A program made the translations under genes and the position numbers. Source: a virus (taxonomy: Duplodnaviria; Heunggongvirae; Uroviricota; Caudoviricetes). Taken from it: a DNA stretch of 10,696 nucleotides. This document shows positions 6,357-6,584 of the stretch, in pieces. A model generated the notes under the pieces. That model searched no databases, had not been told where the DNA came from, and saw nothing but the letters and a program-made list of their open reading frames with translations. Where the stretch lies: the IMG/VR virus record IMGVR_UViG_2534681978_000009, positions 1 through 10,696 of that record; one strand, given 5' to 3'. Position 1 is the first letter of the stretch, and each line of letters begins with the position of its first letter.

Positions 6357-6584
6357 TTACGGATATGTCTTCTTTGAGAAGCTTTTCCAGAAATGTGTTT
6401 GGAATGAACGTATATCCTCCTCTTTTGGTAGAGACGGGAGCAACGCCCTCGCCTCAGCCTTCAGAAGCTCAGTTCTGGCAACTTTCACAAAAGAGATTTG
6501 AGTTCTTTCATCAATGGAACGAAGGAAGCGCAAACGCTTAGCTTCTTTGTGTGTATCAGGTGGATTAAAGCCTTTGTTTCGCAT
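6357..6584 (-). CDS. Hypothetical 75-aa basic protein between cII and O (no lambda counterpart at this position)
   Basis: MRNKGFNPPDTHKEAKRLRFLRSIDERTQISFVKVARTELLKAEARALLPSLPKEEDIRSFQTHFWKSFSKKTYP. ATG at 6584-6582 with GAGG 8 nt upstream. Trimmed from the 166-aa track ORF, whose 5' part is an alternative frame of cII. Confidence 0.45.
   Translation of the reverse strand: MRNKGFNPPDTHKEAKRLRFLRSIDERTQISFVKVARTELLKAEARALLPSLPKEEDIRSFQTHFWKSFSKKTYP

What the first reader, a model, noticed from the sequence alone, without database searches (positions are those of the whole stretch)
6357..6584. Extra 75-aa basic ORF between cII and O, overlapping the oop promoter region
The flanks look lambda-like: cII reads nearly as lambda cII, and the O start (MSNTAKI) and the oop terminator also resemble lambda. 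In lambda, O follows cII within a few tens of bp, whereas here about 270 bp containing a well-formed ORF with an SD is present. Its 5' end coincides with the oop -10 TATAAT, so oop would be antisense to its ribosome binding site as well as to cII. The protein is lysine/arginine-rich with no motif I recognise.
Basis: partly seen in the sequence, partly recalled or inferred. Interest (0 to 1): 0.55.

Follow-up and report, generated by a model that had tools for sequence, protein, structure and literature searches.

The report
Frameshifted copy of conserved cII–O gene
The 75-codon reading frame between the phage genes cII and O is real, but it is a truncated copy, most likely through a one-base sequencing error, of a conserved and catalogued 90-codon lambdoid-phage gene of unknown function that sits directly in front of the replication gene O.

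Summary
The ORF is at 6357-6584 on the minus strand, with a GAGG ribosome-binding site. It lies in a 296-nt cII-O interval, against 32 nt in lambda. The 75-aa length is misleading. The window has a 1-bp deletion (GGG to GG at 6416-6417) relative to every close relative examined. Restoring the base gives a 90-aa ORF (6313-6584) whose stop lies 2 nt before the O start codon.

The window is an Ion Torrent draft contig of E. coli O104:H4 strain 01-09591. Over 8,086 bp it differs from a complete genome by one mismatch plus this single homopolymer gap. The exact 75-aa product occurs on no other contig. All 79 informative viral loci with the same O type carry the intact gene.

The 90-aa gene (phrog_2519; RefSeq WP_001244623.1, hypothetical) is truly protein-coding, with dN/dS about 0.1 and correct-frame wobble. 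It always lies between cII and O. Its start codon overlaps the oop promoter's -10 element, and its last codons hold O's ribosome-binding site.

The protein appears composite. Its N-terminus is related to the 47-aa phrog_1913 proteins. Its C-terminus resembles the first third of the O initiator's winged-helix domain.

No function is known. A replication-linked accessory role is my inference. The finding is ordinary in novelty and modest in interest.

The parts
6357..6584 (-). The ORF as read in this window: 75 aa. Residues 1-56 are authentic and residues 57-75 are out-of-frame.
   Evidence: It matches phrog_2519 at E 9.5e-38 over profile positions 1-74 of 90.
6313..6584 (-). Full extent of the conserved gene. 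It is 90 aa once one G is restored, with its TAG stop at 6313-6315.
   Evidence: Alignment with JEP4, CUS-3 and an Stx2a phage. Repair in silico. Intact in 79 of 79 IMG/VR loci and in NCCP15648.
6416..6417 (-). Frameshift site: a GG run where all close relatives have GGG (1-bp deletion).
   Evidence: It is the only gap in 8,086 aligned bases against NZ_CP009050. The assembly is an Ion Torrent PGM draft.
6592..6595 (-). Shine-Dalgarno GAGG of the ORF, 7 nt upstream of the ATG.
   Evidence: Sequence. An SD-like purine run (GAGG, or TAGG/GGAG in some loci) sits at the same position in all related loci.
6584..6589 (+). TATAAT, the inferred -10 element of the oop promoter (po). It overlaps the ORF start codon by 1 nt.
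   Evidence: It lies in the only invariant 14-nt run (AATTATATGCGAAA) in nine 90-aa loci. TATAAT is also present in the distant loci L017 and L018. The geometry matches po and the O start in lambda.
6596..6664 (+). oop-like antisense RNA. The start at G6596 is inferred by analogy with lambda. The terminator hairpin is at 6631-6658, followed by a T-run.
   Evidence: Terminator scan. The terminator matches lambda in every aligned base. The hairpin is conserved with 4 of 9 pairs compensatory across 11 loci. The start site is not mapped experimentally.
6316..6323 (-). AAGGCAGG, the Shine-Dalgarno for O, embedded in the last codons (Q G R) of the intact ORF.
   Evidence: CAAGG(C/A)AGGTAGnnATG, with single-base variants in L008 and L131, in all ten 90-aa-type loci. 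Distant members overlap the O start by 4 or 8 nt.
6607..6900 (-). cII, 97 aa, 98% identical to lambda cII.
   Evidence: Pfam Phage_CII at 5e-48. BLASTP against lambda.
5363..6310 (-). Replication initiator O, 315 aa, starting MSNTAKI. PGAP instead calls the internal start MENQK.
   Evidence: Pfam Phage_rep_O at 3e-15. The leader is conserved, with in-frame pN/pS 0.35 against 1.30 and 0.56 out of frame. It is homologous to lambda O's N-terminus.

Best explanation
SHOWN. The feature is this contig's copy of a conserved 90-aa lambdoid early gene (phrog_2519; RefSeq WP_001244623.1, 'hypothetical protein'). The gene lies in the rightward early (pR) operon between cII and the replication initiator gene O. 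In this window a 1-bp deletion in a G-run (6416-6417) shifts the frame after codon 56.

The intact gene is protein-coding and under purifying selection. Both ends of the gene carry a second signal:
- Its start codon overlaps the invariant TATAAT of the divergent oop promoter.
- Its last three codons contain O's ribosome-binding site, with the stop 2 nt before O's ATG or overlapping it.

INFERRED. The deletion is most likely an Ion Torrent homopolymer sequencing error and not a real allele (about 0.8 against 0.2). The ORF is translated from the pR transcript after repressor loss, and terminating ribosomes re-initiate on O (translational coupling).

The protein appears to be a fusion of two parts. 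The N-terminal part resembles the ~47-aa basic proteins of phrog_1913. The C-terminal part is a ~35-residue segment that corresponds to the first third of the O-type winged-helix domain.

My best guess for its activity, at about 0.3-0.35, is a dispensable modulator of O or origin-complex assembly. It could also simply tune O expression.
For: Frameshift:
- The alignment with JEP4, CUS-3 and an Stx2a phage shows one missing G. Repair yields 90 aa ending TAG-TT-ATG.
- Against complete genome NZ_CP009050, 8,086 bp show 1 mismatch and 1 gap, and the gap is this site.
- The exact 75-aa protein is on one contig only, which is the window itself: AFPS01000255.1 of E. coli O104:H4 01-09591.
- That assembly was made on an Ion Torrent PGM, and its authors corrected homopolymer indels in 51 of 1,144 core genes (PMC3140518).
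- 79 of 79 IMG/VR loci with the same O type are intact.

Real gene:
- Median dN/dS is 0.10 with saturated dS, and variable columns by codon position are 31/29/80.
- pN/pS is 0.20 in frame, against 1.39 and 1.64 out of frame.

Synteny: cII, ORF, O in all 13 loci examined in detail, down to 41% identity, with either DnaB-type or lambda-P-type partners.

Dual-use ends.

Composite origin:
- 15 of 17 members hit Pfam Phage_rep_O. In every member listed individually, residues 54-88 align to profile positions 5-39, with a best E of 5e-5.
- hhalign of residues 2-35 against phrog_1913-type ORFs gives probability 80% and E 1.5e-5.
- L122, L123 and L125 carry the two parts as separate overlapping genes upstream of O.
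Against: - Sequencing error against real mutation cannot be decided from sequence alone. Other public assemblies carry different 1-nt deletions in the same purine-rich stretch, so real pseudogenisation does occur or errors recur there.
- All Phage_rep_O hits are below Pfam's gathering score of 28.7 bits. Profile-profile comparison with the neighbouring O proteins is not significant (E 0.17 and 0.31).
- No conserved RNA structure sequesters O's ribosome-binding site, so coupling is inferred from spacing only. PGAP calls O from an internal ATG 62 nt downstream.
- The gene is absent from 43 of 75 informative loci with divergent O proteins of the same subtype. It is therefore not required for O function.
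- No structural or sequence homologue of known function was found.
Confidence: 0.8

Rival explanations
1. The frameshift is a real mutation in strain 01-09591. On this reading the prophage carries a pseudogene, or a truncated 75-aa variant, of the 90-aa gene. Termination 46 nt upstream of O would then weaken translational coupling to O.
For: The sequence is as deposited, in version 2 of the assembly. Prophage genes often decay. Several other assemblies hold different 1-nt deletions in the same AAAAGAGGAGGG stretch. That pattern could reflect a mutational hot spot.
Against: The assembly is an Ion Torrent PGM draft with documented homopolymer errors. The change is a homopolymer length change. 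It is the only indel in 8,086 bp against a complete-genome relative that is otherwise near-identical. The product is unique to this contig among the gene positions of the public assemblies searched.
Confidence: 0.18
2. The interval is a non-functional relic: the 5' stump of a displaced O allele, or a diverged O leader. It would be kept open only because ribosomes must traverse it, or not constrained at all.
For: The C-terminal 35 residues resemble the start of the Rep_O domain. The ORF starts in the slot where O starts in lambda, with a similar ribosome-binding region. The 62-aa form has its GY motif at residue 26, against residue 28 in lambda O.
Against: Amino-acid-level purifying selection is strong. 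dN/dS is about 0.1 with saturated synonymous sites, and length is conserved at 86-93 aa down to about 50% identity. A need for ribosome passage alone would not conserve residues. The downstream O keeps its own complete lambda-like N-terminus. The stump idea may still describe the gene's origin.
Confidence: 0.04
3. The protein has a job unrelated to replication. It could be a host-directed or anti-defence factor, or a lysis-lysogeny modulator acting on the cII/oop/FtsH axis. It would then simply be lodged in a permissive slot between cII and O.
For: The slot is variable: empty, a 47-aa gene, 47-aa plus 62-aa genes, or an 86-93-aa gene. That is typical of accessory cargo. The gene is dispensable for this O subtype. 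It is small and basic with no informative fold match. It is physically entangled with po and oop, which control cII.
Against: It has no promoter or terminator of its own, so it does not have the moron architecture. It is expressed only with the early lytic operon. It was found only upstream of one O subtype. Its stop is tightly joined to O's start in every case. Part of it resembles O itself.
Confidence: 0.25

Closest known systems
phrog_2519 / RefSeq WP_001244623.1 (hypothetical protein of lambdoid and P22-like phages such as JEP4, CUS-3, Kapi1 and Stx2a-converting phages)
   Same: Near-identical sequence over residues 1-56, and 97.8% (2 substitutions in 90 residues) over the full length after repairing one base. 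Same position between cII and O. Same start and stop context.
   Different: The window's copy is frameshifted after codon 56, so it reads as 75 aa with an unrelated tail.
Lambda O gene start and oop promoter arrangement
   Same: The ORF's ribosome-binding region and ATG occupy the slot that O's occupy in lambda. The -10 element of po on the opposite strand overlaps the start codon, and the inferred oop start abuts the SD. The oop terminator matches lambda in every aligned base.
   Different: In lambda the gene starting there is O itself. Here a 273-nt gene precedes O, and O has a second, separate ribosome-binding site inside that gene's 3' end.
Pfam PF04492 Phage_rep_O (winged-helix origin-binding domain of O-type initiators)
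   Same: Residues 54-88 align to profile positions 5-39 in the same register in every member listed individually, and 15 of 17 members hit the family. The motif is G[YF]xFIPNxF[LM]ExLL..D[LI]S..QF..[VI]L..F.
   Different: Only about a third of the domain is present, with no recognition helix or wing. All scores are below the gathering cut-off. This is not a DNA-binding initiator.
phrog_1913 (46-58-aa basic proteins directly upstream of O in Klebsiella, Enterobacter and Pantoea lambdoid phages; labelled 'tail protein')
   Same: Same genomic slot and same coupling to O. hhalign relates ORF residues 2-35 to them at probability 80% and E 1.5e-5.
   Different: They are half the length and lack the Rep_O-like C-terminal module. 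In a direct HMM scan the window's ORF hits only phrog_2519.

Membership tests
phrog_2519 | Significant match to the family HMM | tested here: met
   E 9.5e-38, 129.7 bits, residues 1-74 against profile 1-74 of 90.
phrog_2519 | Full-length product of about 90 aa (62-93 aa across the family) ending at the O start | tested here: not met
   The window reads 75 aa with an out-of-frame tail because of a 1-bp deletion. Restoring the G gives 90 aa ending 2 nt before O.
phrog_2519 | Position immediately downstream of cII and upstream of an O-type initiator | tested here: met
   Window coordinates. The same order holds in all 13 related loci examined in detail.
Pfam PF04492 Phage_rep_O | Score at or above the gathering threshold (28.7 bits) | tested here: not met
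   14.6 bits for the E. coli form. The best family member scores 24.1 bits at E 5e-5.
Pfam PF04492 Phage_rep_O | Complete winged-helix domain (profile positions about 1-95) | tested here: not met
   Only profile positions 5-39 are covered, and the protein ends there. The AlphaFold model shows two short helices after a beta-hairpin, with no recognition helix or wing.
phrog_1913 | Match to the family profile | tested here: inconclusive
   The PHROG scan of the ORF lists only phrog_2519. hhalign of the family alignments gives probability 80% and E 1.5e-5 over 34 columns.
Lambda-type oop antisense RNA and po promoter | Intrinsic terminator antisense to the 3' end of cII | tested here: met
   Hairpin at 6631-6658 plus a T-run. 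It matches lambda in every aligned base. 4 of 9 pairs are compensatory across loci.
Lambda-type oop antisense RNA and po promoter | Promoter with a -10 element about 7 nt upstream of the RNA start, overlapping the start codon of the next gene | tested here: met
   TATAAT at 6584-6589 is invariant across the family. The -35 is weak (TGGATT, 3 of 6), and the consensus scan did not call the promoter.
Lambda-type oop antisense RNA and po promoter | Mapped transcription start and an RNA of about 77 nt | not testable with these tools
   The start at G6596 is inferred by analogy with lambda coordinate 38675. Rfam has no matching family.
Moron (autonomous accessory gene cassette in a prophage) | Own promoter and terminator flanking the gene | tested here: not met
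   No sense-strand promoter or terminator was found around the ORF. It lies 22 nt after cII and 2 nt before O, within the operon.

The most novel reading that the evidence does not exclude
The 90-aa protein is a previously unrecognised regulator of lambdoid replication. On this reading it was built by fusing a small basic protein (phrog_1913-like) to a fragment that mimics the first helices of the O initiator's origin-binding domain. It would bind O or the origin complex and so tune replication or the lysis-lysogeny outcome. That would be relevant to Stx2a-converting phages, where replication level affects toxin output. Its expression would be wired to both the oop antisense promoter and O translation.
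Probability: 0.25. Interest if true: 0.6.

Novelty: already known. Interest (0 to 1): 0.3.

Why it matters
As found, it matters mainly as a caution. A single homopolymer indel in an early Ion Torrent draft created a plausible-looking but wrong 75-aa product.

The underlying gene is more interesting than its 'hypothetical protein' label suggests. It is a strongly conserved, uncharacterised small protein in the middle of the classic cII-oop-O control region. It is present in about 7% of complete E. coli genomes, in P22-like phages and in many Stx2a-converting phages. It is physically interlocked with the oop promoter and with O translation.

If it modulates O or replication, it would add a component to a textbook regulatory circuit. 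It could also bear on Shiga-toxin phage replication. It is optional within its phage lineage, and no functional clue came from fold or homology searches. Expectations should therefore stay modest.

Tried and rejected
- PDB sequence profile search: 0 hits at E <= 10.
- NCBIfam: no hit for the 90-aa protein. Rfam on the whole window: no family.
- Exhaustive profile search of 1.84 billion representatives for a full-length initiator beginning like this ORF: only 14 hits at E <= 0.001. The family matches are short proteins or assembly fusions, the one long hit matches only a short internal repeat, and none is an initiator. No unsplit ancestor was found.
- hhalign of the family against neighbouring O proteins: same register but not significant (E 0.17 and 0.31).
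- Conserved RNA structure hiding O's ribosome-binding site: consensus energy only -4.5 kcal/mol with 1 compensatory pair. Rejected.
- Programmed frameshifting at the AAAAGAGGAGGG stretch was considered, because several database variants have 1-nt deletions there. It was rejected because the other frames show no coding constraint (pN/pS 1.39 and 1.64) and intact copies are the overwhelming majority.
- Strict ORF-O co-occurrence was rejected: 43 of 75 informative divergent loci lack the ORF.
- A cII dN/dS control failed because the cII alleles in these loci are mosaic and do not align. It was not used.
- Literature: no paper on this ORF was found. The 2024 preprint on a lambda sRNA concerns the early left operon, not this site.

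Full report
**1. Observation**

The window is a lambdoid immunity and replication region in reverse orientation. It holds cI (7275-7925, plus strand), cro (7009-7194, minus), cII (6607-6900, minus), the ORF in question (6357-6584, minus), O (5363-6310, minus) and a DnaB-type helicase gene (3990-5366, minus).

The ORF is there as described. It starts with ATG, has a GAGG 7 nt upstream, and encodes 75 aa with pI 10.3. cII is 98% identical to lambda cII. Homology to lambda runs through the oop terminator and stops at the cII stop codon. Lambda has 32 nt between cII and O. This window has 296 nt.

**2. The 75-aa reading is a frameshift product**

Alignment with phages JEP4, CUS-3 and an Stx2a-converting phage shows a single missing G in a GGG run at window 6416-6417. 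With that base restored, the ORF is 90 aa and ends TAG-TT-ATG, where the ATG is O's start. PHROG family phrog_2519 has a 90-position profile, and the window's product matches only positions 1-74.

The window is contig AFPS01000255.1 of E. coli O104:H4 strain 01-09591 (HUSEC41). That assembly was produced on an Ion Torrent PGM. Its authors state that homopolymer indels had to be corrected by hand in 51 of 1,144 core genes (PMC3140518).

Against the complete genome of strain NCCP15648, 8,086 aligned bases show one mismatch and one gap, and the gap is this site. The exact 75-aa protein is recorded on one contig only, the window itself. The intact 90-aa protein is seen on at least 1,000 contigs.

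Other database variants of 75 aa carry different 1-nt deletions in the same purine-rich stretch. They are therefore scattered indels and not a shared allele.

I conclude that the frameshift is most probably a sequencing artefact, at about 0.8. A private real mutation cannot be excluded.

**3. The 90-aa gene is real**

I compared ten loci whose products are 69-100% identical. Nei-Gojobori dN/dS has a median of 0.10, with dS mostly above 1. Variable alignment columns fall 31/29/80 by codon position. Uncorrected pN/pS is 0.20 in the annotated frame, against 1.39 and 1.64 in the other two frames.

Length is conserved at 86-93 aa across members down to about 50% identity. Neither is met.

**4. Context and anatomy**

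In every locus examined in detail the order is cII, ORF, O. The ORF begins 20-23 nt after cII. This holds for the most distant members at 41-51% identity. The helicase-side partner varies between a DnaB-type helicase and a lambda-P type. The ORF therefore travels with the cII-O junction and not with the helicase module.

At the 3' end, CAAGG(C/A)AGGTAGnnATG recurs, with single-base variants in two loci. O's ribosome-binding site therefore lies inside the ORF's last codons. In distant members the ORF overlaps O's ATG by 4 or 8 nt. This spacing is typical of translational coupling. I found no conserved RNA structure that would make coupling obligatory. PGAP calls O from an internal ATG 62 nt downstream. 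The 20-codon leader (MSNTAK...) is homologous to lambda O's N-terminus and evolves weakly like coding sequence.

At the 5' end, the only long invariant DNA run in the family alignment is AATTATATGCGAAA. It spans the start codon and a TATAAT on the opposite strand. That TATAAT is also present in the distant loci, and in one of them as an extended TGTATAAT.

Downstream of the TATAAT on that strand lies an oop-like RNA. Its terminator matches lambda's in the window. Across divergent cII alleles the hairpin is maintained by compensatory changes in 4 of 9 pairs.

By analogy with lambda's oop start at coordinate 38675, oop here would start at G6596, one base past the SD complement. It would therefore abut the ORF's ribosome-binding site without covering it, exactly as oop abuts O's site in lambda. 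The ORF's initiation region (AACGAGGTAATTATATG) mirrors lambda O's (AACAGGAGTCATTATG). The ORF thus occupies the slot where O starts in lambda.

**5. What the protein is**

An exhaustive profile search of 1.84 billion representative proteins returns only 14 hits at E <= 0.001. Apart from one 1,975-aa protein that matches only a short repeated internal stretch, they are short proteins or assembly fusions of this family, and none is a full-length initiator. The family is narrow, and every source name the searches returned is from Enterobacteriaceae.

Two partial relationships emerged:

- **C-terminal part.** 15 of 17 diverse members hit Pfam Phage_rep_O individually, with residues 54-88 aligned to profile positions 5-39 in every member listed individually. 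The best E is 5e-5, and all scores are below the gathering cut-off. No other family recurs to that extent. BLASTP of the 62-aa form against lambda O aligns G26-F55 with G28-L57 at E 0.014. Profile-profile comparison with the neighbouring O proteins is not significant.
- **N-terminal part.** Some phages with the same O subtype lack the 90-aa gene. Their cII-O slot is either empty, as in lambda, or holds a 46-58-aa basic ORF of phrog_1913. hhalign relates residues 2-35 of the 90-aa family to these at probability 80% and E 1.5e-5. In L122, L123 and L125 a 47-aa phrog_1913 gene and a 62-aa phrog_2519 gene lie in tandem, joined by ATGA overlaps and followed by O.

The simplest reading is that the 90-aa gene is a fusion. 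One part is a phrog_1913-like small protein. The other is a fragment derived from the 5' end of an O-type gene. This is inference. The two similarity signals are moderate, not decisive.

**6. How it most likely works**

Shown:
- The gene sits inside the pR-driven early operon.
- It has its own ribosome-binding site.
- It ends at O's start.
- Its 5' end doubles as the oop promoter.
- Its amino-acid sequence is under selection.

Inferred:
- It is expressed with cII, O and the helicase after repressor loss.
- Its translation feeds ribosomes to O.

The protein carries a piece resembling O's own N-terminal domain and is found only upstream of one O subtype. My best guess is therefore a dispensable modulator of O or of origin-complex assembly, at about 0.3-0.35. 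The gene is absent from 43 of 75 informative divergent loci with this O subtype. It is therefore not essential for O.

A role in the cII/oop decision, or a host-directed role, remains possible at about 0.25. A purely vestigial stump is essentially excluded by the selection tests, although it may describe the gene's origin.

**7. Comparison with known families and novelty**

The object is a member of phrog_2519. RefSeq annotates it as hypothetical protein WP_001244623.1. The interval occurs in 376 of 5,426 complete E. coli genomes, and the protein in 57 phage records, 49 of them Stx2-converting phages (48 Stx2a).

It is not a member of Phage_rep_O, because both the score and the domain coverage fail. 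It is not a moron, because it has no promoter or terminator of its own. I found no publication that addresses it.

It is therefore already catalogued but functionally uncharacterised. The specific 75-aa form is most likely an artefact.

**8. Verdict**

The feature is ordinary in kind. The residual interest lies in a conserved, unstudied small gene wired into the oop promoter and O translation in medically relevant phages. Interest is 0.3.

Noticed in passing
window 5753-5895 (inside O, minus-strand gene): Two clusters of a 12-nt-period repeat built around (C/T)ATGTGCGG, with about 8 copies in all. These are presumably the origin iterons bound by this O subtype. They also generate the repetitive AHE/AAH peptide segment of O.
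   Followed up: partly
L109, L133, L148 and other IMG/VR loci; phage records NC_071003.1 and OQ847583.1: phrog_1913 is a family of 46-58-aa basic proteins encoded directly upstream of replication protein O. It carries the label 'tail protein' in PHROGs and in some phage records. Given its position in the early replication operon, this is almost certainly a propagated mis-annotation.
   Followed up: partly
L122, L123 and L125 (about 1149-1498): Three overlapping genes in a row: a 47-aa phrog_1913 gene, a 62-aa phrog_2519-type gene, and O, each joined to the next by an ATGA stop/start overlap. This is an apparent unfused form of the 90-aa gene.
   Followed up: partly
window 6248-6310 and L016 7310-7372: O's start is annotated inconsistently. 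PGAP and several gene callers start O at the internal MENQK. CUS-3 and homology to lambda O (MTNTAKILNF) support [10 protein letters not shown], 20 codons upstream. The leader DNA is unusually conserved (pS 0.29, against 0.62 in the ORF), which could mark a recombination boundary between modules.
   Followed up: partly
phage record OR850084.1: A 2,692-bp record named 'Staphylococcus phage SA 1298 Kay' holds a 74%-identical copy of this enterobacterial gene. The match identity, E-value and coverage are the same as for a Salmonella phage record (OR850760.1). The record is probably mislabelled or contaminated.
   Followed up: no
window 9342-10364 (plus strand): A 340-aa ORF in the early left operon region has a very long Glu/Lys/Ala/Arg-rich predicted coiled-coil segment (AEAKAKAEIEAAARREAEAKAAAERAERE...). 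It has no Pfam hit on record.
   Followed up: no
L015 / window as a whole: Apart from the G-run deletion, the contig differs by one mismatch over 8,086 bp from the prophage of strain NCCP15648. The similarity breaks near window 2612, where the nin region is mosaic: NCCP15648 carries an extra NinX-family gene there.
   Followed up: partly
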